Virus record (IMG/VR): IMGVR_UViG_3300034111_000674 | Span: 1-64,000 of that record | Origin: a virus | Lineage: Duplodnaviria > Caudoviricetes | Length of the DNA stretch: 64,000 nucleotides | Strand: one strand, 5' to 3' | In this document: positions 10,708-41,700 of the stretch, in pieces | Position numbering within the stretch: the first letter of the stretch is position 1 | Layout: each line of letters begins with the position of its first letter | The notes under the pieces: model-generated | What the model was told of the DNA's origin: nothing | The model's database searches: none | What the model saw: only the letters and a program-made list of their open reading frames with translations | Position numbers and translations under genes: made by a program

Positions 10708-10758
10708 TTGTAGGTCTTGAGTATAGAACGCTCAAATTTTTTATTGCCAGGAGAATTT

Positions 10759-24603: not shown

Positions 24604-24928
24604 TTACAACGAAACAACCACAATTGGTACCGTTTGGAAAAGAGCTTTTAGATTGTCTATTGAAAACCCGCTGGACAGCAATCAGCAAAAATATATTAAA
24701 ATTTTTGAAGAAAATGTAGTAGATATTGGTGGTAGGACTCTACGTGAACCCGTGGGAACTATAGATGTTTTTTACAATCCTTCAGAGGTGATAGAACTAA
24801 GAGATGTAAACACCGGAGAGTTTAGTTCTAGTAGTGTTTCACAGGCTTATCTATATCAAATATTGTACAGCCTGTACCGCAACAAAGCAATAGAACGGGA
24901 TAATACTCCAGATGACTTTACCATCTAG
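24596..24928 (+). CDS. Small tail-fibre-associated protein
   Basis: 110 aa; overlaps the end of the S74 fibre gene and the start of the next gene; no catalytic motif. Confidence 0.5.
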   Translation: MANYNETTTIGTVWKRAFRLSIENPLDSNQQKYIKIFEENVVDIGGRTLREPVGTIDVFYNPSEVIELRDVNTGEFSSSSVSQAYLYQILYSLYRNKAIERDNTPDDFTI

Positions 24929-26516
24929 TGGTCAGATTGCACTGAGTAATGTAAATGTGGAGCTTGGTTACGGCTCAACGCAATATATTACTTTGAATGA
25001 TACTTTGGTAAGAAATTTGGCAGCACGTCCAACTGCTGGTTCTATTATAAGTATGCCTTCAGATTTTTGGGGTAAATCTGCAGTAACTACAACCTATTCC
25101 CTAACAAGTAGTAGCCCAAATGTTAATGAGGGCAGTAGTGTAACTTTTACTATTGGTGGTACACAAATTACTAACGGCACATACTACTGGACCGTTAGTA
25201 ATTTTGGCGACTTTGGAGTTGCTGGAGGAAGTGTTGTAGTTACTAATAATTCCGGATCTTTTTCAGTCACACCAACTGCAGATAACCTAACAGAAGGTGC
25301 GGAAACTTTTTATGCCTTTTTAAAATCAGGAAGTACTTCAGGACCTATACTAGCCACAAGCAATGTAGTAACAATCAATGATACAAGTCAAACACCTGGT
25401 AGTAGCTATACTATATATCCAAGTGTTTCCAGCGTAAATGAAGGCGGTACTGTAACTTTTACTGTTGGTGGCTCAAATATTACTAACGGCACATACTACT
25501 GGACAGTTACTAATGCTGGAGATTTCAATACTAGCTCCGGATCTTTTAGTATAAATAGCAATAGCGGATCGTTTTCGGTAACAGCAACTGCTGACTTAAC
25601 AACAGAAGGTAACGAAAGTTTTACTGCAAGTGTCCGTTCTGGCAGTATTTCCGGACCTGTACTGGTAACAAGTTCCTCTGTTTTAATTAATGATACAAGT
25701 CAGACGCCACCACCTGCTACCTACACTATATCACCAAGCGCTTCCAATGTTAATGAGGGCAGCACTCTGACTTTTAATGTAGGCGGCACAAATATTGCTA
25801 ATGGTACCTATTACTGGACAGTTACTAATGCTGGAGATTTTAATACTAGTTTCGGATCTTTTAGTATAAATAGCAATAGCGGATCGTTTTCGGTAACACC
25901 AAACTCTGACCTAACAACAGAAGGTAACGAAAGTTTTACTGCAAGTGTCCGTTCTGGCAGTATTTCTGGACCTGTACTGGTAACAAGTTCCAATATTACA
26001 ATTAATGATACTAGCGGTAATCCAACTGTGTTTACTCCTTACCCTAATCTTGGAATTCCACCAAATAGTGTAGTACCGGCTTCCAATGCTCGTACTTCAC
26101 TCAGCAACACTAACAGTTTTGGTATAAGAAACCGTTTAACGTTTATTAAACAAACTACAAATGTACGGGGCACTTTTAGGCAGTCAACTAGTATTTTTAA
26201 CCAAAATTTTAGTGGAACATTTACCCCCGTTGGAGGTACTCCTTATGGCATCGGCCCCTTGCCTAGCTCGCCGGCAGGCTTTCTAAAATTTACTTTACTT
26301 TCCACTAGTGGAACTATTTCAAACAATACTACTCCAACAGCTTGGACACAGATTACAACAACTGGGCCAGAGATATCCGTAAATCGACCAGGCGTCAATA
26401 ATCCAGCATCTGTAGGAACATCTGAAGCCACTTTTAGAATAGACTATTCTCCTACAGGATCTGATGGGAATATTACAGCGACTACTACTGTAATAATGCG
26501 TATGACAATAACTTAA
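24912..26516 (+). CDS. Tail fibre tip/adhesin with three Calx-beta/Ig-like repeats
   Basis: N-terminal MTLPSSGQIALSNVNVELG, a common distal-fibre attachment motif. Three ~105-aa repeats Y-x-x-x-x-S-x-x-x-VNEG-x-x-x-TF...YYWTV...INDTS. Confidence 0.7.
   Translation: MTLPSSGQIALSNVNVELGYGSTQYITLNDTLVRNLAARPTAGSIISMPSDFWGKSAVTTTYSLTSSSPNVNEGSSVTFTIGGTQITNGTYYWTVSNFGDFGVAGGSVVVTNNSGSFSVTPTADNLTEGAETFYAFLKSGSTSGPILATSNVVTINDTSQTPGSSYTIYPSVSSVNEGGTVTFTVGGSNITNGTYYWTVTNAGDFNTSSGSFSINSNSGSFSVTATADLTTEGNESFTASVRSGSISGPVLVTSSSVLINDTSQTPPPATYTISPSASNVNEGSTLTFNVGGTNIANGTYYWTVTNAGDFNTSFGSFSINSNSGSFSVTPNSDLTTEGNESFTASVRSGSISGPVLVTSSNITINDTSGNPTVFTPYPNLGIPPNSVVPASNARTSLSNTNSFGIRNRLTFIKQTTNVRGTFRQSTSIFNQNFSGTFTPVGGTPYGIGPLPSSPAGFLKFTLLSTSGTISNNTTPTAWTQITTTGPEISVNRPGVNNPASVGTSEATFRIDYSPTGSDGNITATTTVIMRMTIT
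25095..26015 (+). repeat. Three Calx-beta-like repeats (312 and 315 bp period)
   Basis: The TACTGGAC anchor (YW) has its GGAC at 25189, 25501 and 25816. Units 2 and 3 are near-identical in DNA over about 190 bp. Confidence 0.9.
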
Positions 26517-27477: not shown

Positions 27478-27510
27478 AAAATGCCATGCCACAAAGCATG
27501 GCATTTTTTT
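27478..27510 (+). terminator. Rho-independent terminator closing the tail-tip operon
   Basis: AAAATGCCATGC-CACAAA-GCATGGCATTTT-TTT. Confidence 0.88.
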
Positions 27511-27513
27511 GAC

Positions 27514-27542
27514 TTGAATAGTAATTCCTTTAGTGGTATAAT
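27514..27542 (+). promoter_or_regulatory. Sigma70 promoter heading cassette A
   Basis: TTGAAT (27514-27519), 17 bp spacer, TGg-TATAAT (27537-27542). Confidence 0.8.
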
Positions 27543-27586: not shown

Positions 27587-27949
27587 ATGGCAACAACATT
27601 ATACTTTGTACAAGCTGATACACTACCACAGATAAAATTAACTTTATCTGACGAGATATCGAACTCGCCAAAGGATTTAACAGGAAAACAGGTAAGTCTA
27701 CACGCCAAACCAGCAACTGGTTCTGGTACAGCATTTTCACGGCCTGCAGTGTGGAACTCAGGAACAGAAACCGCGGATAGAAGTGCAGGAATATGCTATA
27801 TTAAGTGGCTGGCTGGTGATTTAGACAGGCCCGCTGGCGATTATGTTGCTGAAATAGAAATCTACGATGGTACTGTAAATCCGCCTACGCGCGAAACTAT
27901 TTATGAAATGTTAAAACTAGTGATCAGAGAAGATATTGCGGATATTTAA
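27587..27949 (+). CDS. BppU N-terminal-like / fibre adaptor protein
   Basis: VQADTLPQIKLTL...DLTG...GDYVAEIEI pattern of BppU-N / p132-type Ig-like adaptors. Confidence 0.65.
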   Translation: MATTLYFVQADTLPQIKLTLSDEISNSPKDLTGKQVSLHAKPATGSGTAFSRPAVWNSGTETADRSAGICYIKWLAGDLDRPAGDYVAEIEIYDGTVNPPTRETIYEMLKLVIREDIADI

Positions 27950-28217: not shown

Positions 28218-31200
28218 ATGTTGCTCACTTTATTTAAAGGTGATGGAGCAGGTCTGGGAGTTGTAAACGGCAACTTATCGGCCACAGAGTCTGGATCAGA
28301 TGTTGGCGCTATAACGGCTAAACTTTTGGTCAAAGGTTCGAGCATCACCACAGAGACTGGATCAGATACTATAGCTATGATAGTTAAGGTATCTGTTAAA
28401 GCCTCAATCAGTGCCACAGAAACTGAATCAGATATTGCAGCTATAACGGGCAAGATACTTGTTGGCGGATCGATTAGTGCCACAGAAACTGAATCAGATA
28501 TTGCAGCTATAACGGGCAATACAGGTACTAGCGGATCGATTAGTGCCACCGAAACTGAATCAGACATTGCAGTTATAACAGGCAAGATACTTGTTGGCGG
28601 ATCCATCAGTGCCACAGAAACTGAATCAGATATTGCAGCTATAACGGGCAAGATACTTGTTGGCGGATCCATCAGTGCCACAGAAACTGAATCAGATATT
28701 GCAGCTATAACAGGCAAGATACTTGTTGGCGGATCCATCAGTGCCACAGAAACTGAATCAGATATTGCAGCTATAACGGGCAATACAGGTACTAGCGGAT
28801 CGATTAGTGCCACAGAAACTGAATCAGACATTGCAGCTATAACAGGCAAGATACTTGTTGGCGGATCCATCAGTGCCACAGAAACTGAATCAGATATTGC
28901 AGCTATAACGGGCAATACAGGTACTAGCGGATCGATTAGTGCCACCGAAACTGAATCAGACATTGCAGCTATAACAGGCAAGATACTTGTTGGCGGATCC
29001 ATCAGTGCCACAGAAACTGAACAAGACATTTTTGCTGGGTCTGTTTCAACTGCTCCAGCTATAGAAGTTATTAAACAATATGGAAGAACAGCTGCAACCT
29101 ATACATTGGGCGTTTTTCTGTATGATGAAAAAATATTAATAACAGCAGAACCGCTGTCTAGTTTAAGTGTTGCTATTACATACGTATCTAAAACTAAGGC
29201 ATCTTCCATCTATCACCCAGACAAAGCCACTGCTGAAATCATTAGTCCAAACACCGCACTTGACGTATATTTTACTACTACAAAATTATCAGAAATACTT
29301 ACGTACGGTAAAATTGATTCGGTAGCTGCAGATGGAATATTTCTGCCAGAGCTTGAGAGAATACCTGTAGAAGTGGTACAATTCTCAGACAGCCTGTTTA
29401 GAGTAACTTTTAGAGATATTGAAGAAGAGTCAGAGATTTTAGAAATCTATGAAACTTTCTTAGAAAAACCGTTAACAGATACCTATACAACAGAAGATTA
29501 TCTTGATACACAAACTGACTACTACAGAGATCAAGTAGATTTCACCAGTATATCTTCAGATATACTAATTAATATGTTGTACGATAATTATTTATCTGAT
29601 CAGTACAGCACTGTAGATCAGTTGTCTAATACTACAGTTAAATCTTTAGAAGATCAGTACAGTATCTCAGATAGTTTTACTTATGTTAATATAACAGGAG
29701 TTATTGATCAGTTTGTAACACAAGACTTATTAACTACCGAGTACACTAAAGTTGTAATAGATCAGTACAATATATCAGACATAGTATCAACACAATTAAG
29801 TTACTTCAAAGATTTTGCAGATGAATACAATGTATCAGATTTAGTATCTAACAACCCACAAAAAGTAGTAGAAGATAGTTATAGTATAACTGACAATACA
29901 ATTTATTCGATAGAAAAAATAGTACTCGATCCAGCCAGTATATCTGACAATTTATCACGAATAGTAGATTTTAATCCTAGCATAATAGATCAACTAAATC
30001 TTTCTGATAATATTGGTGAAACCCAAATTGACGACGGCACAACCTTTAAATATTCAAAAGACGAAACCGATCAGTATTTTATATCAGACATTCAATACTC
30101 TTTAATAACAAAACCTGTAATTGACCAATACAACATTGCAGACCAAGTATTTAGCGATATTGCAAAAATTGTAGCCGATCAGTACAATATTTCAGATAGT
30201 CTAAATAGATCGTTAGATTTTTACAGAGATCAAACAGATCAAAGTAATATACTAGATATTCAATATTCTTTGATAGCTAAACAAGAATCAGAAAGTACAC
30301 AATTTACAGAAAGTAATATTACCAGTGTAAACAAAATAGTTCAAGAGCAAACAAATATTCAAGAAATAGTAGATAAGCAATTAGACAAACTATCTATAGA
30401 TTATTTTAATATTGGTAGCTCAATATCTACACAAAAAGATTTTTTCAGAGATTTTTCCGAAACCAACAACATATCGGATATAGCAAGACAGCTTGTAAGT
30501 AAATCTACACAAGAAGAGTTTAATGTATCAGATACTTATGTGTCCGTCATTAACTTTCTTAGACAGCCTGTTGAAAACCCTGTAATTTCTGATCAACTAG
30601 TCTCAACTACTGATTTTCTAAGAAATCCTACAGATGTTGGTAGAATATCTGACAATTTAAACTACATCGCCAATTTTTTCAGAGCACCAGAAGACCCTGT
30701 AAATCTATTAGAAATAGTTAATTATAGTGTAGTAAAAGTATTAACAGATACGTACAGCTTGGAAGAAGTAATATCCAATCAAGTAGGTAAGCCACTGACT
30801 GATAGTTATCAGATATCTGATATCACTAGCACTGTGGTTGAGTATACTCGAGAATTTTTGGAAGGATTAAATCTAAGTGACGACATTAACGGCGCTGCCA
30901 CAGACGACGATCAAAATGTTATTTACTTTAAAAACCCTTCTGACGAGTACAATGCCTCCGACGAACTATACAGCAGTATAAATAAAGCCGTACAAGAACA
31001 GTATAGTATACTAGACATTATTTTTAGCAGTGTTTTAAAACCAGTACAAGATCAATATAGTGTATCTGATATAGTTTTTACCGAAACTAATTATATTAGG
31101 GTGCAAGAAGATATAACAAATGTAGATGATAGCAGATTTTATTCATACAACAAAGTCAATATTGATGAATATAATTTATCAGATACTTTAGTTAATAGCT

Positions 31201-34200
31201 TAAATAAAGTATCAGTAGATCAGTTTAATATTGCAGAAATAGTACAAACTAACTTTACTAAAACTATAGTTCCAGATATTTTTAGTATATCAGACACAAC
31301 TTCAGTACAAGCTGATTTTTATAGAAATCCAACAGATCCAACTAATTTGGGCGATCTAGTTGCCAGGTTAGTAGGTAAACCTTTAGAAGAAATAACTAAT
31401 TTAACAGATATATTATCAGTTACTGTTAACTACTTTAGGTCATTTATTGACGATACTAATATATCCGATTCTCCAATACTAATAGTTAATTACAATCCTG
31501 AGTACGATGATTTATTGGTAGGTACAGATTTTACTGAATTTGAAGCTGAATTTTATAGAGAACCTGAAGAACCTTTAAACATAATTGATACTTCACAATA
31601 TGATCTGTCCAAGCTACTATTAGATGAGTATAATATTAGTGATTTCTATATAAGTACATACAATAAATTTGTAACAGATCAGTCAAATGTATCGGATAAC
31701 TATACTAGAGTAGTATCGTTTAGTAGAGAGTTTACTGACAATGTAGGTGTTGCCGACAATATTAATAGTGGAAGCTATATAGGTGATACTGGGTATTTTA
31801 ACTATTCTAAATTTTTAGTAGAGCAAACTACTGTTCAAGAGCTTATAGTAAGTGATATTGACAAACCACTACCTGTGAATCAATATAACATAAATGACGC
31901 CATCTCTAATGATATTAGTAAAATCCCAGAAGATCTAACAAATATATCGGACTTAACAGCAATTCAAGCAGAGTTTATTAGAACACCAGAAGATATTAAC
32001 AATATATCTGAAAGTGCAATTATAGAGTACAGTTCAGAATTGTCAGATAGCTATGTTATATCAGAGGATATAATAAACACTGTTGAAAAGCCATTCTTAG
32101 ACTACTACTACACAACAGATGTAACTGTATATGTGGTAGACAAAGTTACTGAAGATATCACAGAAATACAAGAAGTAGCAGAAACTCAAGTAGATTTTTA
32201 CAGGGATCCACTTGATGAAAACAATATTATTGATATTTTTGAAAGTGTATTTGACAAACCAACAGAAGAATCTCTAAACAGTATCGACGTTATATCTTTT
32301 GCCACAGACTACTTTAGAGAAGCTTTAGACGACACTAGCTTATCTGACGATACATTAATTATTAACAGTTTTATAAGAGATATTATTGATATCAATACGC
32401 TTTCTGACGAACTGTTGTCAGTTATTGATTATATTAGAGAATTCGACGACGTCTTAGACCTACAGGAAATAGTAGAAAATACTGTATTAAAAGAACTAGA
32501 AGAAAGTTTTAATCTAGGAGATGAGGCTCTTTTATTAACAGAAGTTAATGTAACGGACAACTATGAGCTCTCGGATACGCTAGACACTGTTATATCATAT
32601 GATAGAGAGTTATTAGAAGAGTTAAATCTAAGTGATGACATAGACGGCTCAGCCTTAGACGACGATCAAAACTTTAGTTACTTTAAAAATCTATCAGATA
32701 CTTATAGTTTACTAGACAGTACCCTCAGTTCAGTAGATAAAGGTTTATCAGAGGAGTATTATACTCTATCCGACAATCTTCAATATGATATTAATAAAGC
32801 ACCTTTAGATTACTACAATATATCAGAAACTTTTGACCGAGCAGCTGAATTCTATAGAGACTACAGCGATCAATTTAATGCAACAGACTTATTAGTATCT
32901 GCTACAGACTTCTATAGAAATCCAGAGGAAACAGCATCCTTAACGGATAATACTATCTATAGTACGTTAAAAGTAGTAATTGACTCAAATAACATATCAG
33001 AAGATATAGCAAGTAGCATAAATAAACTACTATCAGAACAAACAAATATTTTAGATACTGCTGCTACCAGCTTGTCTTTTATAAGAGATATAAGTGACAA
33101 CATATTCTTTACAGATGATATAAATGGTTCGTCTGTTGATGATAGTCAAAATTTTACATACTTTAAAAATATTACTGATCGAAATGATGTAGTTGACAGT
33201 TTTACAACCAGTACAATTAAAGCTATTCAAGATTCGTACACTTTATTTGAGGACTTACAAACCGCAGTAGAAAAGTCGATATCAGATACATACAGACTAT
33301 CTGATACTTTATTAACATATGTGGTATCCATCAGAGAGTTTACAGATTCTTACTATATTGCAGAATTAATTAGTGTAGGCAGTAACAAAGTATTTACTGA
33401 CCAATACACTTTAAGTGATACTACAACTCAAACTGTAAATTATAGCAGACTAGTAACAGATCAATCTAATATATTCGATCAATTTGACAGGCAGGTCAAC
33501 TATGTACCTAGCCATACAGATCAGTATAGGGTATTAGATAACGTATCCGTAAATGTTGAATTTAATAAATCTTACGAAGACCTATACTCTGCTGTAGATA
33601 TACTATCCTTGGCTTTAAACAGTGTTACAATTGACCAGTACAATATAAATGATACTATTGCACTATCCTCCAATAAGACAGTACTAGATCTAACCAATAT
33701 TTCTGATAGCCTTGACACTGCTACATCATTTGCAAGAACTATATTAGATCAGATAAACTTTTCTGACAATATTGGTGGTGCTACAATTAGTGATGGTTCA
33801 AATTTCAAGTATTCTAAAAATGAAATTGATCAATATTTTGTACAGGAATTACTAGCGTATCAAGTTAACAAAGTAGTCTCAGATCAATTTAACACTACTG
33901 ATATAACAGCACTTGATACTAATAAATCCGTTATAGATGTATATTCTGTAACTGATTCTATAAGCAGACAAACTGACTACATCAGAAATATATTAGATCA
34001 GCAATATGTGAGCGACACGGTTGATACTCTGTTAGTAGTTATCAGGGAGTTTATCGACTTACCACTCGTTCAAGACATTCCTTTAATTGACTTTAACGTT
34101 GGAATTTCCGATAGTTATAATACAGTTGATGAGATATCTAATACTGTTAACAAACGATTAAATGATCAAACTATTACAACAGATAGTTTGAATACTGTAT

Positions 34201-36596
34201 TAAGTTTTGATAGAAACTTTACTGATCAGATAAATACTTCTGATAATCTGAGCGGATCTTCTGTAGACGACAACCAAAATTTCATTTACTTTAAAGATAT
34301 ACAAGATCAAACTAGCACTATAGATTACACGGCTATTAGTACTGTAAATTACCTTTATGACCAACAAGAGGTTGCTGAAGATATATCACTATTTGCTGGC
34401 AAAACAATAAGTGATGTTTACGTAGCCAGTGACGTTTTAGAAAGAACAGCCGAGTACTACAGAAGTCTTACAGATCAATTTAGTACTTCAGATACTGTAT
34501 CTACTCAATCAGCATTTTTTAGATCGCTGTCTGATAACTACAGTTTGTTTGATGTACTAGTAACTGCGACAACATCAGCGCAGGCAGATCAGTTTATAGT
34601 AAATGACTCGTCTGAATTTTCTGCATTAAAATCTTTAACAGATCAAGGAAGTTTGTCTGATTCGTTTACCAGAGTTTTAGAGTACAATCAATCCTTAATT
34701 GATCAGATAAATTTTTCTGACAATATTGGTGGAGCTACAATTAGTGATGGGTCAAACTTCAAGTATTCAAAAAATGAAACTGATCAATATCTAATATTAG
34801 AAATAATATCTAATGATGCAAATAAGGGAGTTTTAGATAGTCAAGATATACTAGATTATCAAGAGCTATTTGTAAATAAAGGACCACTCGATCAAAGTAG
34901 TCTATTAGATAATATTTTAATAGATTCAGAATTTGACAGAGTTTTTACTGATCAAGCGGGATCATCCGACAGTATCGGTTTTCAAAATAATTTTTATAGA
35001 CTTTTTGACGACCAGTACAGTATACTGGATTCTATAACTACTAGTAGCAATAAGCAGTCCTTGGATCAGCTAAATATAGAAGATGGTCAGTACTACACGG
35101 TATTTAAAGAATTATTAGATACAAGTATTTTATCTGACGACCTATCTATTGATTCGGAGTTTTACAGAAGTTTACTGGATGTACCTAGAGTAACTCAGCT
35201 GATTTCCTTACAAAATAATTTTAATAGAGATTTTGAAGACCAATACACTGTATCAGATTTTGTAAATGTTGTTCCTAACAAAGCAACTATTGAAGAAATA
35301 GGTCTTTTAGATACTCAGTATTTTGATATATTAAGAGCACCCACAGATACTCTTAATATAGAAGAATTAACAGAAATATCCTACAACATAGGCTTTTTTG
35401 ATCAGGTATATGCGTTTGAGAAATTCAGCGAAAAAGATGCGTACGAATTTGAGTTTAATAAAATTAGTGACTACTTGTTCAACGATATTAGTAAAGTTCA
35501 AACAGATCAAACCAGCCTGTCTGATTTTGTACTTGCAGATGTCACTTTTGACAGAGAAATTACAGAAACTGCAAGCATAGAAGAGACTATATCCCTGAGA
35601 CCAAGAATAAGGCTACCAGATTTACTTGTAAGTAAAATATCTTGGGCAATGTATACTCAAGATTATACAGGTGGTTATTTTGCAGAAATGTATCTTGAGG
35701 GTACTGGCAGAGAGTATGACGGCACTTATTATAATCTCTACGAGACGTATAAAGATAAGTATAATATTACTGATGTAGCTTCTTTAAGTACACTCTATAA
35801 TAGGCCGGCTACAGAAAACACAAGTGTATCTGAAGATTTATTTATTGATAACAATGTATCGCCTATAGAAAATCCACTGAACTTTAATGATAATTTATAT
35901 AATGTTATAACCAAAAACATTTTTGATGAAATTAATCTAAGTGAAAATCTAATAACGCTGGGTACAGGTGACGCATCGCCGGCTGATTCATACGGTATTT
36001 CTGACAACCTGTATTATAACACTGAAAAAACTATAGTGGACCAATACAGTATATCAGACTCTATATTGCTTGCTTATATTTCTGGTGTACCACTAGAGGA
36101 TATTATAAGTTTGACAGATTCCTTGTTTAATACAATAAACAAGAATTTGATAGATCAGCTAAACATAGCTGATGAGATATCAACACAAAGTGATAGCAGT
36201 ACCACTTCGACAGACAGTTATAATATTGTAGACACTGTTTATCATACAACTGATAAACTATACGAAGATATTACTAATACTACAGATACCTATTACAGCG
36301 AAATAGTTAAAAGTATATTAGACCAATTAAATATATCTGATTTTACAACAATAGAAAAATCTGAGAATGCTGCTCCACAGGATAGTTCTAGTATTACAGA
36401 TACAACATATTGCATTGTAGACAAGAGTATATTAGATCAATATAATATAGTAGATTCTTTATTAATCAACTGTATTTTTGACAGACAGATAGTAGATACT
36501 ACAAGTGTTACATCTGATGGAATTATTTCCAACCAAAACTATGTTGCCGACTACTTTCAAGAAGGCTATATAGGAACATCATTGACATTTACATAA
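28218..36596 (+). CDS. Giant acidic repeat protein (2792 aa), probable virion appendage scaffold
   Basis: Uninterrupted ORF. Twelve 22-aa repeats at the N-terminus, then ~2400 aa of degenerate ~19-aa D-x-Y/F-x-I/V-S-D repeats, punctuated by 8 node motifs and 2 Q-x-Y...YF-x-E-x-Y motifs. Function inferred. Confidence 0.7.
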   Translation: MLLTLFKGDGAGLGVVNGNLSATESGSDVGAITAKLLVKGSSITTETGSDTIAMIVKVSVKASISATETESDIAAITGKILVGGSISATETESDIAAITGNTGTSGSISATETESDIAVITGKILVGGSISATETESDIAAITGKILVGGSISATETESDIAAITGKILVGGSISATETESDIAAITGNTGTSGSISATETESDIAAITGKILVGGSISATETESDIAAITGNTGTSGSISATETESDIAAITGKILVGGSISATETEQDIFAGSVSTAPAIEVIKQYGRTAATYTLGVFLYDEKILITAEPLSSLSVAITYVSKTKASSIYHPDKATAEIISPNTALDVYFTTTKLSEILTYGKIDSVAADGIFLPELERIPVEVVQFSDSLFRVTFRDIEEESEILEIYETFLEKPLTDTYTTEDYLDTQTDYYRDQVDFTSISSDILINMLYDNYLSDQYSTVDQLSNTTVKSLEDQYSISDSFTYVNITGVIDQFVTQDLLTTEYTKVVIDQYNISDIVSTQLSYFKDFADEYNVSDLVSNNPQKVVEDSYSITDNTIYSIEKIVLDPASISDNLSRIVDFNPSIIDQLNLSDNIGETQIDDGTTFKYSKDETDQYFISDIQYSLITKPVIDQYNIADQVFSDIAKIVADQYNISDSLNRSLDFYRDQTDQSNILDIQYSLIAKQESESTQFTESNITSVNKIVQEQTNIQEIVDKQLDKLSIDYFNIGSSISTQKDFFRDFSETNNISDIARQLVSKSTQEEFNVSDTYVSVINFLRQPVENPVISDQLVSTTDFLRNPTDVGRISDNLNYIANFFRAPEDPVNLLEIVNYSVVKVLTDTYSLEEVISNQVGKPLTDSYQISDITSTVVEYTREFLEGLNLSDDINGAATDDDQNVIYFKNPSDEYNASDELYSSINKAVQEQYSILDIIFSSVLKPVQDQYSVSDIVFTETNYIRVQEDITNVDDSRFYSYNKVNIDEYNLSDTLVNSLNKVSVDQFNIAEIVQTNFTKTIVPDIFSISDTTSVQADFYRNPTDPTNLGDLVARLVGKPLEEITNLTDILSVTVNYFRSFIDDTNISDSPILIVNYNPEYDDLLVGTDFTEFEAEFYREPEEPLNIIDTSQYDLSKLLLDEYNISDFYISTYNKFVTDQSNVSDNYTRVVSFSREFTDNVGVADNINSGSYIGDTGYFNYSKFLVEQTTVQELIVSDIDKPLPVNQYNINDAISNDISKIPEDLTNISDLTAIQAEFIRTPEDINNISESAIIEYSSELSDSYVISEDIINTVEKPFLDYYYTTDVTVYVVDKVTEDITEIQEVAETQVDFYRDPLDENNIIDIFESVFDKPTEESLNSIDVISFATDYFREALDDTSLSDDTLIINSFIRDIIDINTLSDELLSVIDYIREFDDVLDLQEIVENTVLKELEESFNLGDEALLLTEVNVTDNYELSDTLDTVISYDRELLEELNLSDDIDGSALDDDQNFSYFKNLSDTYSLLDSTLSSVDKGLSEEYYTLSDNLQYDINKAPLDYYNISETFDRAAEFYRDYSDQFNATDLLVSATDFYRNPEETASLTDNTIYSTLKVVIDSNNISEDIASSINKLLSEQTNILDTAATSLSFIRDISDNIFFTDDINGSSVDDSQNFTYFKNITDRNDVVDSFTTSTIKAIQDSYTLFEDLQTAVEKSISDTYRLSDTLLTYVVSIREFTDSYYIAELISVGSNKVFTDQYTLSDTTTQTVNYSRLVTDQSNIFDQFDRQVNYVPSHTDQYRVLDNVSVNVEFNKSYEDLYSAVDILSLALNSVTIDQYNINDTIALSSNKTVLDLTNISDSLDTATSFARTILDQINFSDNIGGATISDGSNFKYSKNEIDQYFVQELLAYQVNKVVSDQFNTTDITALDTNKSVIDVYSVTDSISRQTDYIRNILDQQYVSDTVDTLLVVIREFIDLPLVQDIPLIDFNVGISDSYNTVDEISNTVNKRLNDQTITTDSLNTVLSFDRNFTDQINTSDNLSGSSVDDNQNFIYFKDIQDQTSTIDYTAISTVNYLYDQQEVAEDISLFAGKTISDVYVASDVLERTAEYYRSLTDQFSTSDTVSTQSAFFRSLSDNYSLFDVLVTATTSAQADQFIVNDSSEFSALKSLTDQGSLSDSFTRVLEYNQSLIDQINFSDNIGGATISDGSNFKYSKNETDQYLILEIISNDANKGVLDSQDILDYQELFVNKGPLDQSSLLDNILIDSEFDRVFTDQAGSSDSIGFQNNFYRLFDDQYSILDSITTSSNKQSLDQLNIEDGQYYTVFKELLDTSILSDDLSIDSEFYRSLLDVPRVTQLISLQNNFNRDFEDQYTVSDFVNVVPNKATIEEIGLLDTQYFDILRAPTDTLNIEELTEISYNIGFFDQVYAFEKFSEKDAYEFEFNKISDYLFNDISKVQTDQTSLSDFVLADVTFDREITETASIEETISLRPRIRLPDLLVSKISWAMYTQDYTGGYFAEMYLEGTGREYDGTYYNLYETYKDKYNITDVASLSTLYNRPATENTSVSEDLFIDNNVSPIENPLNFNDNLYNVITKNIFDEINLSENLITLGTGDASPADSYGISDNLYYNTEKTIVDQYSISDSILLAYISGVPLEDIISLTDSLFNTINKNLIDQLNIADEISTQSDSSTTSTDSYNIVDTVYHTTDKLYEDITNTTDTYYSEIVKSILDQLNISDFTTIEKSENAAPQDSSSITDTTYCIVDKSILDQYNIVDSLLINCIFDRQIVDTTSVTSDGIISNQNYVADYFQEGYIGTSLTFT
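28401..29027 (+). repeat. 66-bp (22-aa) tandem array with two alternating unit types
   Basis: GSISATETESDIAAITG followed by KILVG (A) or NTGTS (B). Order A B A A A B A B A, then a terminal partial unit; two degenerate units lie upstream from 28269. Confidence 0.97.
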
Positions 36597-36610: not shown

Positions 36611-37066
36611 ATGATTTTAGAAAATTTGAAACTAAGCGGTAAGTTAAACATAGTAATTAAAGACCAAGACGGTTCTGTTAAAGACCAGGTAGAGGTAGAT
36701 AACTTAGTAGTTACTGCCGGTCTTACTTTTATCGCCAGCCGTATGGGCGGCACAACACAAGCAGTGATGAGCCACATGGGTGTTGGTTCCGGTACAACTG
36801 CTGCAGCGGCTGGTCAAACAGACTTGGTATCTATTGTTGGCTCACGCGTAGCATTAACCAGCACAACACCTGGAACTAGTAATATTGTATATGTTGCTAG
36901 CTTTGGTGCTGGCGTAAGTACAGGCGCCATTACAGAAGCAGGTATTTTTAATAATGCCACAGCTGGCAGCGGTACTATGTTATGCAGAACTACTTTCGCT
37001 GTTATCAATAAAGGTGCTAACGACACCATGACTGTTACTTGGACAGTTAGTTTAGTAGCCGTTTAA
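36611..37066 (+). CDS. Small structural protein, tail-collar-fibre (DUF3751 / P2 gpH N-domain)-like fold
   Basis: VTAGLTFIA...MGVGSG...AGQTDL...ITEAGIFN...K...TW parallels the DUF3751 pattern; followed by its own terminator. Confidence 0.6.
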   Translation: MILENLKLSGKLNIVIKDQDGSVKDQVEVDNLVVTAGLTFIASRMGGTTQAVMSHMGVGSGTTAAAAGQTDLVSIVGSRVALTSTTPGTSNIVYVASFGAGVSTGAITEAGIFNNATAGSGTMLCRTTFAVINKGANDTMTVTWTVSLVAV

Positions 37067-37076
37067 TATCTCGCAT

Positions 37077-37105
37077 AAAGGACCACCTGCAAAGGTGGTC
37101 CTTTT
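37077..37105 (+). terminator. Rho-independent terminator after ORF 36611
   Basis: AAAGGACCACCT-GCAA-AGGTGGTCCTTT-T. Confidence 0.88.
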
Positions 37106-37142
37106 ATTGCAAAATATTTAATAAATAACACGAGCAGGATTT

Positions 37143-37894: not shown

Positions 37895-38752
37895 ATGTCA
37901 ACAAGATATTTAGGTGCCGCATTAACTTCTAGTTTACAGACCCCTACCACAAATCCCAACAGTGTATGGAACACACGTGAAGAGCTGAGATATATACAAG
38001 AAGGTACTTGGGCACCCCTTGTTGTAGACTGTTTATTGGTAGGCGGTGGTGGTGGTGGTGGTGGGCCGGGTACCAACGTAAGTGGTGGTGGTGGTGGCGC
38101 TGGTGGATTTTTATTACAAAAATTAATTTTAACACCTGGAGCAATTTATACCATTATAATAGGGGTCGGCGGAGCAGGTGCCCCCGGAACAAATCTTCCA
38201 GGATTTAAGGGCGGTAATACTACTATAAGTGGTCCCAAAATCAATCTAGTGGCATACGGCGGTGCTCCTGGAATGATATTTCCAAATGCATACCCAGGCG
38301 GCCCTATAGGTGGTAGTGGCAGCGGGGTTAGTGGAAACAGCGGCGGCGGCCACAGTGGTAACGGTCCTGTAGGGTTTGGAACATTTGGACAAGGCTTTGA
38401 CGGATCACTGGGAACTGGCGTTCTAGGAAGTACTGGTTGTAGTGGCGGAGGAGGCGGAGGTGCTGGAGGTCCTGGAACTATAGCGGCCGGAGGACCGGGT
38501 AGATTAAGTTCTATTACTGGAAATCTAGTTGTGTATGCAAGTGGAGGAATTGATACAGTTATATCGGGAGCTGCCAATAGAGGCAATGGAGGCGGCGGTG
38601 GCAGCGGCACGCCGGGCGCAAGTGGCGGCAGCGGTATAGCTGTTATAAGAGCACAAGTAACAGCACGTTCTACAACTGGGTCTCCAATAATTACAACTGT
38701 GGGATCGTCTACTGTTTATACTTTTACAGGTAGTGGTACAATAACTTTTTAA
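37895..38752 (+). CDS. Glycine-rich domain fibre-tip protein
   Basis: VDCLLVGGGGGGGG...GGGGGAGG...GGSGIAVIR...TVYTFTGSGTITF, the polyglycine adhesin-type pattern. Confidence 0.75.
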   Translation: MSTRYLGAALTSSLQTPTTNPNSVWNTREELRYIQEGTWAPLVVDCLLVGGGGGGGGPGTNVSGGGGGAGGFLLQKLILTPGAIYTIIIGVGGAGAPGTNLPGFKGGNTTISGPKINLVAYGGAPGMIFPNAYPGGPIGGSGSGVSGNSGGGHSGNGPVGFGTFGQGFDGSLGTGVLGSTGCSGGGGGGAGGPGTIAAGGPGRLSSITGNLVVYASGGIDTVISGAANRGNGGGGGSGTPGASGGSGIAVIRAQVTARSTTGSPIITTVGSSTVYTFTGSGTITF

Positions 38753-38755
38753 ATT

Positions 38756-41700
38756 ATGAGCAAACAATATCCAGGTGGTTATATAACCAAACTAGCTAGT
38801 ACTCCAAACATAATATCTGCTCCAGGTATTTGGACCCTAGATCAGGCTGCCCAGTATATATCTGACGATAGTTGGCCAGGACTGCCTTCAGATCCAAATT
38901 TTAATAACGTAACACTGTTGTTAAACGGCAACAACATTCAAGGCAGGTCTAACAATTGTTTTATAGACTCCTCGCCTAGTAAAATGGCTTTTACTAGGTC
39001 TGGCAATACCACTCAGGGCAGTTTTAATCCACACGGCCCGCTGTGGTCAAACTATTTTGATGGCAATAATTATATCTATTATGATGTAACTACATCAAAT
39101 GCCCCTGGAACCGATAATTTTTCAGTAGAATGTTTTGTAAATGTTACAAATAATACTGAAAACAGGGGAATTTGCCAGTTCAGTGCCACCAGCACTGGTC
39201 TTCAGGGCAGTAGCAGTGCTACCTTGATGATGCAACTATATAATGGTAATTGGTGGTACCATGCTGGTAATGAGAGCAGAGGTCCCTATGGTACTGTAGT
39301 GCCAAATAGGTGGTATCACGTTATAATAACAAGATTTAATTCAACAACTTATTTAATTGTAGATGGCACCGCACTACACGCTTTTGGAGATTCTACTAAT
39401 TACAGTACTGCTCGTTACGTGGCAGTAGGTGGAGGTTATGCGAGTGGGTATTTAGGCAAATGTTACATCAGTAATTTTAGGTATATAAAAGGTTTCGCAC
39501 CATATATTGGTGTTTCTTATTCCAGACCAACATCACCTCTTACAAATGTTCAGGGAACTCAACTACTAACTTGTAATAGTAATAGAACCATAGATACTAG
39601 TCTTAATAACGTACCAGTAACCAGAAGTGGTACTACACTTGTTAAACGGCTAAGCCCATTTAACCCGCCTTCAAAATACGAAACTTCTAACAGTGACATT
39701 GGTTGGTCTAATTTTTTTAATATTAACACAGATCATTTGCAGATACCTTATTCATCACAATTTGCTTTTGATACCGGCGACTTTACAGTTGAGTGCTGGG
39801 TAAATTTTAATTCCAGAAGCACGACATTTTCACCTATAATAATGTTGGGTACTGGTGTTGATGCCATACCTGTTCAGCGATTAGCATCTTGGGCACTGTA
39901 TGCAGATAATAGTGCTAATACATTGGTATTTAATAGATATACTCCTACCAATATAGCCGTTAGTTTTTCTTGGACGCCTGTTTTAAATCGTTGGTACCAT
40001 ATAGCAGTGTCTAGAAGCGGCACCAGTTTTAGAGCTTTTATAGATGGTGCACAAATAGGAACTACACAAACATCTACAACTAATTACTCTGCTGTTAATA
40101 CTTCAGATCCTTTAGTTATTAGTAGATTTATTGCTTCTGGCGGAGTTGTTTATGGCTTTAACGGTTATATTAGCAATGTTAGAGTACTAAAAGGTACCGC
40201 TGTATATACCAGTAATTTTTTACCTTCCACAACACCATTAACTGCTATAACCAATACTGCTCTGTTAACCTGTAACAGCAGTACAATTGTAGATAATAGT
40301 ACGAACAGTTTTTCTATAACCAGAAACGGCCTTATCCCTGTAGAAAAATTTAGTCCTTTTCACAGTTCAATAAATGAAAATACTGTCTTAACTCGCAGTG
40401 TTTATTTTAACGGTGCCTCTGTTATAACAGCTAGTAATACTGTAACAAATTTCGGAACAGGAGATTTTACAGTTGAGTGCTGGTTTCGGACTAATGTAAT
40501 TGATACTAGCAGCGATACAATAATTTCTAATTATAATAATGCTAGTGGGGGTTCTATTGGAGTTTATATAAATAGAGGAACCAGTGGTGGTATACAGGTT
40601 TATCAAGGCACAGGTAATACATTGGTATTAAATGCACCAAGTGTTATTACTGCCACTAATACTTGGTATCACATTGCAGTTGCTAGATCAAGTGGGGTAT
40701 CTAGGTTATTCCTTAATGGTATATTAATGACCACTGCTACAGACACCAGCAATTATGGTATAGACAATTCTGTAGTTGCCATTGGAGGGGCAAGTGTAAA
40801 TGGCGTTTATGGGAGCTTTTTTCAGGGGCTAATATCTAACCTACGTGTGGTTAAAGGTACTGCTCTATACACAAATTTTACTCCGCCTACTGCACCTCTT
40901 ACTGCTATTACTAATACTCAGTTGCTAACTTCTCAAAGTAACCGCTTTGTAGACAATAGCAGCAACGCTTTTACGGTCACTAGTACCGGAGATACAAGCG
41001 TTCAACCATTTAGCCAATTTGCACCCACAGCATCGTGGAATGCTACTATTAATGGCGGTAGTGCGTACTTTGATGGTAGCGGAGATTACATTTCTGCACC
41101 TGCTTCGGGTTTTGCACTACCTGGAGATTTTACGGTAGAAGCATGGGTTTATATTGCCGGTAACAGCCCTCTAGACGGTGCCAGTCAAAGAAGTGCTGTA
41201 ATAGCATCTACTATGCAAACCAGCAATCCAGTTAGTGGATTTACTTTTTACATTGGTGGTAATTCAGCAATTACTGGCATATTTCTAGCTGCCGAAATGC
41301 GTGTAGGTGGAATTGTTACAGGTTATAGTACATCAGTAAGCATACCACAAGGGGTATGGAATCATATTGCTTTTGTAAGAACTGGCACAACATTAACCTA
41401 TTATTTAAATGGTATAAATGTAGGTTCAAGCTCTGGTGTAAGTCAAAACATACCTGTAAATAATGCACTAACTATAGGTGGACAAACTGTTCCTTCGTAT
41501 ACGCGAGACTTAAATGGATATATATCAAATTTGCGTATAGTAAGCGGTACAGGAGTTTATACTGGTAACTTTACCCCACCCACTGCACTCCTTACTGCTA
41601 TTACTAATACTAGTCTCCTGCTAAATTTCGCTAATGCAGGCATTTACAACGCAGTGTCTAGCAATGTTATAGAGACTGTAGGCAATGCCCAAGTAAGCAC

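What the first reader, a model, noticed from the sequence alone, without database searches (positions are those of the whole stretch)
30006..36596. Quantised higher-order periodicity in the 2792-aa acidic protein: a segmented molecular ruler
Seen: a node motif (S/T/A)-D-(N/D)-I-x-G...D...F-x-Y-(S/F)-K occurs 8 times. Its Asp codons lie at 30006, 30879, 31755, 32634, 33114, 33765, 34242 and 34719 (aa 597, 888, 1180, 1473, 1633, 1850, 2009, 2168). Spacings are 291, 292, 293, 160, 217, 159 and 159 aa. The intervening sequences are highly diverged, yet lengths hold to about 1 aa, and the classes differ by whole ~19-aa repeats (217 is about 159+3x19; 292=159+7x19). Nodes come in two subtypes, DG..FKYSK and DDDQNF.YFK. 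Inference: selection acts on length between nodes, as expected for a ruler or scaffold with regularly placed hinges or branch points. A 292-aa segment would span at most ~100 nm if fully extended.
Basis: partly seen in the sequence, partly recalled or inferred. Interest (0 to 1): 0.8.

Follow-up and report, generated by a model that had tools for sequence, protein, structure and literature searches.

The report
Giant repeat shaft of phage fibre
The 2792-residue protein is most likely the long shaft or scaffold of a tail appendage of a lake-water phage, built from about 105 back-to-back 18- and 20-residue units, and its evenly spaced "nodes" come from ancient copying of whole blocks of units rather than from a fixed ruler length.

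Summary
All eight node motifs lie at the stated codons, with spacings of 291, 292, 293, 160, 217, 159 and 159 aa. Residue shuffles gave no hits.

The cause is a strict grammar. Residues 448-2456 form an unbroken array of 18-aa "K" units, 20-aa "R" units and 27-aa "N" units. An N unit is a K unit with a 9-residue acidic loop.
- Short blocks (159/160 aa): N-KKR-R-KKR.
- Medium block (217 aa): N-KKR-KRRR-KKR.
- Long blocks (291-293 aa): N-KKR-KKKR-KRRR-KKR.

The blocks are old copies. They share 27-39% aa identity, and nucleotide identity is near background.

The one close homologue (1780 aa) keeps three terminal 159/160-aa blocks but has a 346-aa long block. Distant relatives place nodes 3 to about 21 units apart. 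Unit length is therefore constrained, but inter-node length is not fixed across the family.

The gene lies in a terminator-bracketed operon found in seven metagenomic contexts. The operon holds a BppU_N-like adaptor, the repeat protein, and a highly conserved 151-aa protein. The 151-aa protein has the A511 gp105 / phi812 arm-segment fold.

My best reading is a fibre shaft with an end adaptor. A phi812-like scaffold-plus-segments filament is not excluded. This is an uncharacterised variant of a known kind.

The parts
27478..27542 (+). Intrinsic-terminator-like hairpin (27478-27507), then a promoter-like site (27514-27542, 10 of 12, with TG). Marks the upstream edge of the appendage operon.
   Evidence: consensus scans only
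27587..27949 (+). 120-aa BppU_N-like small protein, the first gene of the conserved module
   Evidence: Orthologues sit upstream of the repeat protein in six contexts and are 39-77% identical to it. PF10651 BppU_N hits 3 of the 6, best E 2.2e-6, but not the window's own copy.
28218..36596 (+). 2792-aa repeat protein (P0001)
   Evidence: phrog_12240 E 7.6e-42. No Pfam family except a marginal DUF5122 hit on the N-terminal repeats.
28407..29021 (+). N-terminal tandem repeat of 22 aa (66 bp), 87-93% nucleotide identity between copies. A second assembly has 88 aa fewer here.
   Evidence: A paralogous module lies in ORF 50057-51424.
29115..29558 (+). Non-repeat N-terminal domain (aa ~300-447). By eye it resembles aa ~60-190 of the homologue P0003.
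   Evidence: Sequences read. The similarity was not scored.
29559..35585 (+). Main array, aa 448-2456: about 105 contiguous units of 18 aa (K), 20 aa (R) and 27 aa (N). Three units carry 1 extra residue, and there is one 17-aa gap near the C-terminal end.
   Evidence: Dynamic-programming parse with position-specific matrices. Unit profiles.
30009..30089 (+). Node unit 1 (aa 598-624), subtype A
30882..30962 (+). Node unit 2 (aa 889-915), subtype B
31761..31841 (+). Node unit 3 (aa 1182-1208), subtype A, degenerate, preceded by 1 extra residue
32637..32717 (+). Node unit 4 (aa 1474-1500), subtype B
33117..33197 (+). Node unit 5 (aa 1634-1660), subtype B
33768..33848 (+). Node unit 6 (aa 1851-1877), subtype A. 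Lies in a 90-nt tract (33747-33836) that is 84/90 identical to 34701-34790.
34245..34325 (+). Node unit 7 (aa 2010-2036), subtype B
34722..34802 (+). Node unit 8 (aa 2169-2195), subtype A
35586..35720 (+). 45-aa interruption (aa 2457-2501) holding an internal, weak copy of the family's C-terminal motif (..QDY..GYF..)
   Evidence: HMM score 2.5, weak. The homologue's internal copies score 13 and 16.
35721..36515 (+). Second, looser array (aa 2502-2766), mostly K units with 2-aa spacers. Matches phrog_12240.
36516..36593 (+). C-terminal motif (aa 2767-2792), family consensus SG.L..QNY....YF.EDYVG.SRTF
   Evidence: Present at the extreme C-terminus of 52 of about 150 relatives.
36611..37066 (+). 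151-aa conserved partner protein (phrog_5417), all-beta, gp105 / arm-segment / T4 gp8-like fold
37080..37108 (+). Intrinsic terminator after the partner gene: 8-bp G+C-rich stem, 6-nt loop, then a T run
   Evidence: Read directly. A different hairpin sits at the same place in the homologue (L003 15817-15846).

Best explanation
P0001 is the long shaft or scaffold protein of a tail appendage (side fibre or arm) of a lake-water siphovirus.

What is shown: Its core, aa 448-2456, is an unbroken chain of about 105 short units. Each unit has a constant 11-residue half ([K/R]-x-h-x-D-x-Y-x-I-S-D, an alternating strand-like pattern). It also has a variable first half of 7 residues (K unit, 18 aa), 9 residues (R unit, 20 aa) or 16 residues (N unit, 27 aa). 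Nodes are always embedded as KKR-N-KKR. The equal spacings arise because an 8-unit block (N-KKR-R-KKR, 159 aa) was copied long ago. Some copies were enlarged in the middle by whole units, giving 217 and 291-293 aa. Since then small indels have been purged.

What is inferred: Indels are purged because each unit is a fixed-length structural element. Nucleotide similarity between copies has decayed too far for recombination to change the unit number. The rod is a spacer that holds distal adhesins away from the tail. The upstream BppU_N-like protein anchors it. The highly conserved 151-aa protein is an adaptor that binds the conserved C-terminal motif and links to the variable large proteins encoded downstream. 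This layout is analogous to the proximal half-fibre, knee and distal half-fibre of T4.
For: Gene context: terminase, portal, protease-capsid fusion, major tail protein, a 2413-aa tape measure protein and fibre-like proteins lie upstream. A protein with nine laminin-G domains lies downstream.

Grammar: every unit was parsed, and only three 1-aa irregularities occur across the node-bearing blocks.

Age of the copies: amino-acid identity between segments is 27-39%, with 0-6 gap positions within a length class (0-1 in most pairs). Nucleotide identity is 0.26-0.49 against a background of 0.31.

Close homologue P0003: it keeps three N-KKR-R-KKR blocks followed by the same tail. The array part of the alignment has 1 indel in 565 columns. 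The following ~500 columns have 15.

Wider family: 393 representatives score E<1e-3. They use the same K/R/N units, with node spacings of 3 to about 21 units.

Conserved module: the three-gene module was seen whole in six of the seven metagenomic contexts, in siphovirus-like and SU10-like podovirus backgrounds. In L005 only the repeat protein and its partner were checked. The repeat-protein/partner pair also occurs in Burkholderia phage BcepGomr and Aeromonas phage phiA008.

Partner protein: it is 86% identical between two phages whose repeat proteins are 27% identical. More than 7900 homologues were found, and the 120 listed are 63-100% identical. Its model has pLDDT 81. It matches the phi812 arm segment, A511 gp105 and an HFTV1 hub domain at Z 9.0-9.4, and the phage GP4 fibre-tail adaptor at Z 6.5. 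It also matches N-terminal domains of annotated tail fibres at TM about 0.8.

Partner and motif go together: the partner gene followed the repeat protein in all nine contexts where the C-terminal motif or a variant of it is present. It was not next to two array proteins that lack the motif.

Operon: terminators bracket it in the window, and one follows the partner gene in the homologue.
Against: No structure of the array could be obtained, so its fold and oligomeric state are unknown. No relative has been studied experimentally, and no Pfam family covers the array.

The constraint against indels and the near-universal partner are equally compatible with the scaffold-plus-segments rival. The role of the acidic node loops is unexplained. 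The association of the partner with the C-terminal motif rests on only 9 positive and 2 negative contexts.
Confidence: 0.6

Rival explanations
1. Composite filament built like the phi812 baseplate arm, only far longer. In this reading P0001 is an extended, nebulin-like scaffold. Each K or R unit lends one beta-strand that bridges neighbouring dimers of the 151-aa protein. The acidic N loops act as docking loops for side-attached receptor-binding proteins. The repeat protein would then literally set the length and branch pattern of the appendage.
For: The partner has the arm-segment / gp105 fold (Z 9.0). In phi812 the arm consists of an arm scaffold protein plus six dimers of arm segment protein. 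The scaffold's linkers complete the beta-sheets between dimers, and its 28- and 40-residue docking loops hold trimers of receptor-binding proteins (PMC13433997). The gene order scaffold-then-segment is the same there. The rival would explain three things: the strict 18/20-aa unit lengths, the conserved 11-residue half of every unit, and a partner far more conserved than the repeat protein. The partner gene has its own strong terminator in both homologues.
Against: There is no sequence similarity between the partner and the phi812 segment protein. The phi812 scaffold is not a simple repeat. Distant K/R arrays exist without a partner gene next door. Relatives with only a few units still keep the partner (BcepGomr gp17-gp18). 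One dimer per unit would require about 200 partner copies per scaffold and a filament of about 400 nm (my estimate). No conserved internal promoter for the partner gene was found.
Confidence: 0.2
2. One reading: selection acts on the distance between nodes, so that hinges or branch points sit at set intervals, as on a ruler.
For: Within-class lengths hold to within 1-2 aa at about 30% identity. The unit-type order is identical within each class. The homologue keeps three 159/160-aa blocks.
Against: The homologue's long block is 346 aa rather than 291-293 aa. Across relatives almost every unit count from 3 to 11, and several higher counts, occur between nodes, mostly unequal within one protein. 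Some relatives have no canonical nodes at all (L009 and L010). Descent from block duplication plus unit-level constraint is a sufficient explanation.
Confidence: 0.08
3. The equal lengths are a trivial result of recent DNA duplication, or of an assembly artefact.
For: One 90-nt tract is nearly identical between nodes 6 and 8 (84/90 nt). The N-terminal 66-bp repeat is young and varies between assemblies.
Against: Outside that tract, nucleotide identity between segments is 0.26-0.49 and third-position identity 0.30-0.46. The backgrounds are 0.31 and 0.33. A second assembly shows no mismatch over the last 7500 nt of the gene. Contig pieces from four lake-water metagenome runs, of the years 2016, 2024 and 2025, match parts of it without differences.
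Confidence: 0.01
4. The array is an intrinsically disordered, polyanionic region with no defined structure, for example a brush or mimic.
For: Net charge is -253 over 2009 residues. The AlphaFold2 monomer model has pLDDT 35 and no secondary structure. The ESM Atlas model of a relative has pLDDT 0.42.
Against: Disordered regions tolerate indels. Here unit lengths are fixed and hydrophobic positions are conserved in register (positions 2, 6, 10, 14 and 16 of K units). The sequence is rich in I, L, V, F and Y (36% of residues).
Confidence: 0.05

Closest known systems
Baseplate arm of Staphylococcus phage 812 / Listeria phage A511: arm scaffold protein plus arm segment protein (A511 gp105)
   Same: A long protein is followed directly by the gene for a small ~150-175-aa beta protein of the same fold (Z 9.0; gene order). 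In phi812 the long protein carries docking loops for receptor-binding trimers, and extended stretches of it bind the small protein by strand complementation (PMC13433997).
   Different: There is no sequence similarity. The phi812 scaffold is 1019 aa and non-repetitive, with globular domains and an N-terminal wedge part (PMC13433997). It belongs to a contractile-tail baseplate. Here the long protein is a 105-unit repeat in a siphovirus, and its relatives also occur in podovirus-like contigs. The stoichiometry here is unknown.
T4 long tail fibre (gp34 proximal half, gp35/gp36 knee, gp37 distal half)
   Same: The gene order is long shaft, then small connector(s), then a distal receptor-binding protein. 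The shaft contains repeated sequence motifs and appears beaded by EM (my own knowledge; review PMC3004832 listed, not read).
   Different: No sequence or family match. The T4 repeats are longer and irregular. Here the array is gap-free, with two fixed unit lengths and a block grammar.
Nebulin along the muscle thin filament (functional analogy only)
   Same: Simple repeats are grouped into super-repeats, in a protein proposed to match a partner polymer subunit by subunit (my own knowledge).
   Different: Nebulin is eukaryotic and alpha-helical, with about 35-aa modules. There is no evidence here that the partner polymerises along the array.
Short-repeat shafts and solenoids: adenovirus fibre triple beta-spiral (15 aa) and bacterial 20/22-aa leucine-rich repeats
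   Same: The units are short and of fixed length, so indels would break the register (my own knowledge).
   Different: None of these consensus sequences is present. The only structural hint is a low-confidence ESM Atlas model of a relative, which resembles solenoids at TM 0.36-0.39.
PHROG families phrog_12240 (repeat protein) and phrog_5417 (partner)
   Same: Significant matches: E 7.6e-42 and E 3.6e-28.
   Different: Both families are annotated 'unknown function'. phrog_12240 (387 positions) best matches the second, looser array (aa 2590-2777).

Membership tests
phrog_12240 (unknown function) | Significant match to the family profile | tested here: met
   E 7.6e-42, 145 bits, 5 stretches, best at aa 2590-2777. 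Relatives P0003, P0005, P0014 and P0015 also match.
K/R/N repeat fibre family with C-terminal YF.EDYVG motif (defined here; not a curated family) | Contiguous 18- and 20-aa units with the constant half [K/R]xxxDxYxISD | tested here: met
K/R/N repeat fibre family with C-terminal YF.EDYVG motif (defined here; not a curated family) | Motif SG.L..QNY....YF.EDYVG... at the extreme C-terminus | tested here: met
   An HMM built from 50 other members scores 35.5 bits on aa 2760-2792.
K/R/N repeat fibre family with C-terminal YF.EDYVG motif (defined here; not a curated family) | A phrog_5417 gene immediately downstream | tested here: met
   Window 36611-37066. Also seen in L003, L005, L007, L009, L010 and L011, and in the isolates BcepGomr and phiA008.
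phi812/A511-type arm scaffold + arm segment system | Small partner with the gp105 / arm-segment fold | tested here: met
   Z 9.0, rmsd 3.7-3.9 A, 115-116 residues aligned to 9fko_A and 6hhk_A. Unrelated rows score below 4.7. The query is a predicted model with pLDDT 81.
phi812/A511-type arm scaffold + arm segment system | Scaffold gene directly followed by the segment gene | tested here: met
   Window 28218-36596 then 36611-37066. phi812 L015 21533-24592 then 24703-25224.
phi812/A511-type arm scaffold + arm segment system | N-terminal part of the scaffold forms part of a T4-like baseplate wedge (helices plus trifurcation domain) | tested here: inconclusive
   No Pfam or PHROG wedge match in P0001. 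The N-terminus was not folded. The phage is siphovirus-like, with no sheath or wedge genes among those examined.
phi812/A511-type arm scaffold + arm segment system | Many segment dimers bound along the scaffold by beta-strand complementation | not testable with these tools
This needs a multimer prediction with the partner, or quantitative proteomics or cryo-EM.
Tape measure / tail-length ruler proteins | Match to TMP families and a position between the tail tube/chaperone genes and the distal tail genes | tested here: not met
   The TMP is a separate gene, 10717-17958 (phrog_3779 E 1.7e-44). P0001 has no TMP match and lies downstream of the distal tail genes.
Homotrimeric phage tail fibre | Gene lies in the tail-fibre / adhesin module of the genome | tested here: met
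Homotrimeric phage tail fibre | Trimeric, intertwined shaft | not testable with these tools
   No usable model of the array was obtained. No solved relative was found by sequence.
BppU_N (PF10651) adaptor, for the upstream 120-aa gene | Match to the Pfam model | tested here: inconclusive
   3 of 6 orthologues match, best E 2.2e-6. The window's own copy does not match at E<=1.
DUF5122 beta-propeller repeat (PF17164), for the N-terminal 22-aa repeats | Score above the gathering cut-off with individual repeats matched | tested here: inconclusive
   28.3 bits against a cut-off of 27, but no single stretch passes on its own.

The most novel reading that the evidence does not exclude
The repeat protein may be a true molecular template. 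In this reading it is a single extended chain whose roughly 105 units each capture one dimer of the very abundant and highly conserved 151-aa gp105-fold protein. The result would be a composite filament hundreds of nanometres long. Its length would be set by the number of units. Its eight acidic node loops, of two subtypes, would be docking points for the downstream adhesins. This would be a phage analogue of nebulin, and a greatly extended version of the phi812 baseplate arm.
Probability: 0.18. Interest if true: 0.8.

Novelty: new variant of a known kind. Interest (0 to 1): 0.45.

Why it matters
The three-gene module is widespread in aquatic phage metagenomes. The partner search returned more than 7900 matches, and the 120 listed are 63-100% identical to the query. 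The module also occurs in a few isolates (Burkholderia BcepGomr, Aeromonas phiA008, a Synechococcus phage). It has no Pfam family for the shaft, no solved structure and no assigned function.

The array is an unusually clean natural example of a protein rod written in a two-letter length code (18 and 20 residues) with a block grammar. It is therefore a good subject for asking how repeat proteins fix their register and how appendage length is encoded.

If the scaffold-plus-segments reading were right, it would be a new way for a virus to build and measure a long filament. If the plainer fibre reading is right, the value is mostly in annotation. It would give a name and an architecture to a large family of 'hypothetical' phage proteins, and a conserved adaptor useful for recognising fibre modules.

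Tried and rejected
- tblastn of P0001 and of the short relative P0015 against 50,697 phage records found only a 31% match to the N-terminal 22-aa repeats, or nothing. Megablast of the locus found nothing.
- The pattern scan of viral contigs confirmed no relative.
- AlphaFold2 on a 195-aa node-to-node block, with a 12-row alignment of paralogous and orthologous blocks, gave pLDDT 35 and no secondary structure, so no model.
- The three-copy complex job on the same block returned 'no answer' and is not used as evidence either way.
- PDB sequence and profile searches with array segments, the C-terminal region and an SU10-like relative gave nothing, or chance-level hits to designed helical repeats.
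- ESM Atlas searches gave only unnamed viral clusters and a low-confidence solenoid-like model.
- I tested whether nodes are truncated copies of the C-terminal motif. An HMM of 50 C-terminal motifs does not hit any node, so the idea is rejected.
- I considered by eye whether the node loop is a canonical DxDxDG calcium site. The spacing does not fit. This was not tested further.
- A profile comparison of the partner with the phi812 arm-segment sequence gave no similarity.
- The gene next to the membrane-anchored array protein P0009 is not a partner homologue.
- Contexts of P0007 and P0017 came without DNA, so only gene sizes could be read.
- No RNA holder was listed for the locus, so relative expression of the giant gene and the partner could not be examined.
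- Contigs of four lake-water runs laid on the locus showed no substitutions or indels, so natural length variants could not be assessed.
- A promoter-like site inside the end of the giant gene (36418-36446, 11 of 12) is not conserved in the homologue.
- The proposed shared N-terminal leader of the two downstream adhesins is only marginal (E 0.049).
Full report
**Setting.** The window is the first 64 kb of a 74-kb IMG/VR virus record that is about 70% complete. The plus strand carries a siphovirus-type structural module. It runs large terminase, portal, a protease-capsid fusion, major tail protein, a 2413-aa tape measure protein, and then several very large tail-end proteins. The finding lies in ORF 28218-36596, which translates to 2792 aa (P0001). 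Contigs of the same phage occur in lake-water metagenome runs. Pieces from four of them, of the years 2016, 2024 and 2025, match the parts they cover exactly.

**Observation.** The node Asp residues are at aa 597, 888, 1180, 1473, 1633, 1850, 2009 and 2168. The spacings are 291, 292, 293, 160, 217, 159 and 159 aa. The motif does not occur in 2000 residue shuffles. Autocorrelation of the repeat region peaks at lags of 159, 585, 18, 56 and 217. Node-to-node segments align end to end at 27-39% identity with 0-6 gap positions within a length class (0-1 in most pairs).

**Anatomy.** I parsed the protein by dynamic programming with position-specific matrices. Residues 448-2456 are an essentially gap-free chain of three kinds of unit.
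- K units have 18 aa, with a conserved Lys at position 8.
- R units have 20 aa, with a conserved [F/Y]-x-R at positions 8-10.
- N units have 27 aa.

All three share a constant 11-residue second half, [K/R]-x-h-x-D-x-Y-x-I-S-D. They differ in a first half of 7, 9 or 16 residues. An N unit is therefore a K unit with a 9-residue acidic loop of the type G-x-x-x-D-D-D-Q-N.

The node-to-node segments follow a grammar.
- Segments 1-3 are N-KKR-KKKR-KRRR-KKR. Their lengths of 291, 292 and 293 aa differ only through three 1-aa irregularities.
- Segment 5 is N-KKR-KRRR-KKR (217 aa).
- Segments 4, 6, 7 and 8 are N-KKR-R-KKR (159/160 aa).

The classes differ by whole blocks, KKKR = 74 aa and KRR = 58 aa. 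Every node sits in the same KKR-N-KKR context.

The array is strongly acidic, with a net charge of -253 over 2009 residues. It is rich in D, S, I, T, L, N and V and has no His or Met. After the main array come a 45-aa interruption with a weak internal copy of the C-terminal motif, then a second and looser array that matches phrog_12240, and finally a 26-aa C-terminal motif. In front of the array lie a young 22-aa tandem repeat and a non-repeat domain.

**Age of the repeats.** Ungapped nucleotide identity between segments is 0.26-0.49 and third-position identity is 0.30-0.46. For random offsets the values are 0.31 and 0.33. The single exception is a sharply bounded 90-nt tract around nodes 6 and 8, where 84 of 90 nt are identical. 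It looks like a gene-conversion patch.

**Homologues.** Only one close relative exists among 5.8 billion clustered proteins. This is P0003, 1780 aa and 27% identical, from a syntenic phage contig. Its nodes are spaced 346, 160 and 159 aa apart. Its last three blocks have the same N-KKR-R-KKR grammar and are followed by the same tail as in P0001. Block-by-block identities suggest positional orthology for the last two blocks.

In the P0001-P0003 alignment the array part has one 1-aa indel in 565 columns at about 32% identity. The next ~500 columns have 15 indels, several of them of unit size (19-29 aa). This serves as an internal control and shows that the main array is unusually protected from indels.

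An exhaustive HMMER search with aa 1473-2330 found 393 representatives at E<1e-3, ranging from 295 to 3699 aa. They are built from the same K/R/N units but with other grammars, such as RKRKRK, runs of R, or runs of K. Where strict acidic-loop nodes occur at least twice, in 14 such relatives, the spacings are 85, 103/104, 123/124, 138-144, 158, 179, 197, 213-218, 233, 303 and 430 aa. That is 3 to about 21 units, and consecutive spacings within a protein are mostly unequal.

Quantisation by the unit is therefore general. A preferred inter-node length is not.

**Module.** In all seven metagenomic contexts examined (the window, L003, L005, L007, L009, L010 and L011) the repeat protein is followed at once by a 149-161-aa protein of phrog_5417. 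In the six where I looked upstream, it is preceded by a 110-135-aa protein that matches Pfam BppU_N in three of six cases. The backgrounds differ. They include siphovirus-like contigs and one with SU10-type portal and adaptor genes. Two isolates also carry the pair, Burkholderia phage BcepGomr (gp17-gp18) and Aeromonas phage phiA008.

Of the roughly 150 relatives, 52 end in the motif SG.L..QNY....YF.EDYVG.SRTF. The partner gene was present in all nine contexts where that motif or a variant of it occurs. It was absent next to two array proteins without the motif.

The partner is strikingly conserved. It is 86% identical between two phages whose repeat proteins are 27% identical, and 48-60% identical in distant contexts. 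The search returned more than 7900 matches, and the 120 listed are 63-100% identical to the query.

In the window the operon is bracketed by terminator hairpins at 27478-27507 and 37080-37108. The homologue has a different hairpin at the same place after the partner gene.

**Partner fold.** An AlphaFold2 model of the partner has pLDDT 81 and is all-beta. It matches a domain of the HFTV1 baseplate hub (Z 9.4), the phi812 arm segment protein (Z 9.0) and A511 gp105 (Z 9.0). It also matches the GP4 fibre-tail adaptor (Z 6.5) and T4 gp8 (Z 6.4). Unrelated rows score below 4.7. Among predicted viral structures it matches the N-terminal domains of annotated tail fibres at TM about 0.8.

The phi812 paper (PMC13433997) shows that each baseplate arm consists of an arm scaffold protein and six dimers of arm segment protein. 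Scaffold linkers complete the beta-sheets between the dimers. Docking loops of 28 and 40 residues hold trimers of receptor-binding proteins. [quoted passage not shown] The phi812 genes are adjacent and in the same order. However, the phi812 scaffold is a 1019-aa non-repetitive protein, and the partners share no sequence similarity.

**Interpretation.** I am confident that this is a structural protein of a tail appendage. I am also confident that the node periodicity results from an ancient block duplication within an array of fixed-length units.

The mechanism I think most likely (about 0.6) is as follows. The array forms a rod that acts as a spacer. It is anchored by the BppU_N-like protein. 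It is capped by the 151-aa adaptor at the C-terminal motif, and that adaptor links to the variable large adhesins encoded downstream.

The main rival (about 0.2) is a phi812-like composite filament in which every unit binds partner subunits and the node loops are docking sites. The data do not separate the two readings, because no model of the array could be obtained. Direct selection on inter-node distance, recent duplication and pure disorder are each unlikely, for the reasons given under the rival explanations.

**Verdict.** The 'ruler' inference is only partly supported. The system is an uncharacterised variant of known phage appendage architecture. It is of moderate interest, and would be of high interest if the template model holds.

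Noticed in passing
window 28407-29021: The 66-bp (22-aa) tandem repeat at the N-terminus of P0001 is young, with 87-93% identity between copies. It differs by exactly 88 aa (four units) between this record and another assembly of the same phage (P0002 / L004), which is otherwise identical over the last 7500 nt. Logan contigs break in this stretch, so the copy number may be polymorphic or may be collapsed by assembly.
   Followed up: partly
window 33747-33836 and 34701-34790: A sharply bounded 90-nt tract around nodes 6 and 8 is 84/90 identical (24 of 30 codons identical), while the flanks are fully diverged. It looks like a gene-conversion patch inside an otherwise ancient repeat.
   Followed up: yes
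window 50057-51424: A 455-aa ORF shares the N-terminal module of P0001 (aa 8-296, 38% identity, E 4e-36), including the 22-aa repeats. The same module therefore heads two different proteins in this phage.
   Followed up: no
window 35586-35720; L003 gene 10001-15343 (protein aa 1359-1380 and 1599-1619): Internal copies of the family's C-terminal motif occur, one weak copy in P0001 and two clearer ones in P0003. Each is followed by a further short array. This suggests the giant proteins arose by end-to-end fusion of shorter fibre genes.
   Followed up: partly
P0009, P0010, P0057, P0103, P0121, P0137 (distant relatives; P0009 = L014 670-11769): Some distant proteins with K/R-type arrays, up to 3699 aa, end in a hydrophobic helix followed by basic residues. 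That is a membrane-anchor-like tail rather than the phage C-terminal motif. P0009 comes from a metagenome-assembled genome and has no partner gene next to it. The array may also serve as a stalk in cellular surface proteins.
   Followed up: partly
window 10717-17958: The tape measure protein has 2413 aa. At about 1.5 A per residue (the general rule for siphovirus tails, from my own knowledge) that implies a tail of roughly 360 nm, which is unusually long.
   Followed up: no
window 4124-6100: A single 658-aa ORF combines a prohead protease domain (Peptidase_S78, aa 19-150) with a major capsid domain (Phage_capsid, aa 367-636).
   Followed up: no
window 37895-38752 and 38756-44941: The 285-aa glycine-rich protein and the 2061-aa protein with nine laminin-G domains begin with weakly similar ~40-residue N-termini (28% identity, E 0.049). 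The similarity is marginal.
   Followed up: partly
window 30001-36000: G+C falls to 0.31-0.33 across the repeat array, against 0.37-0.47 in the flanks. This fits the D/N/I/Y/K/S/T-rich composition of the units.
   Followed up: no
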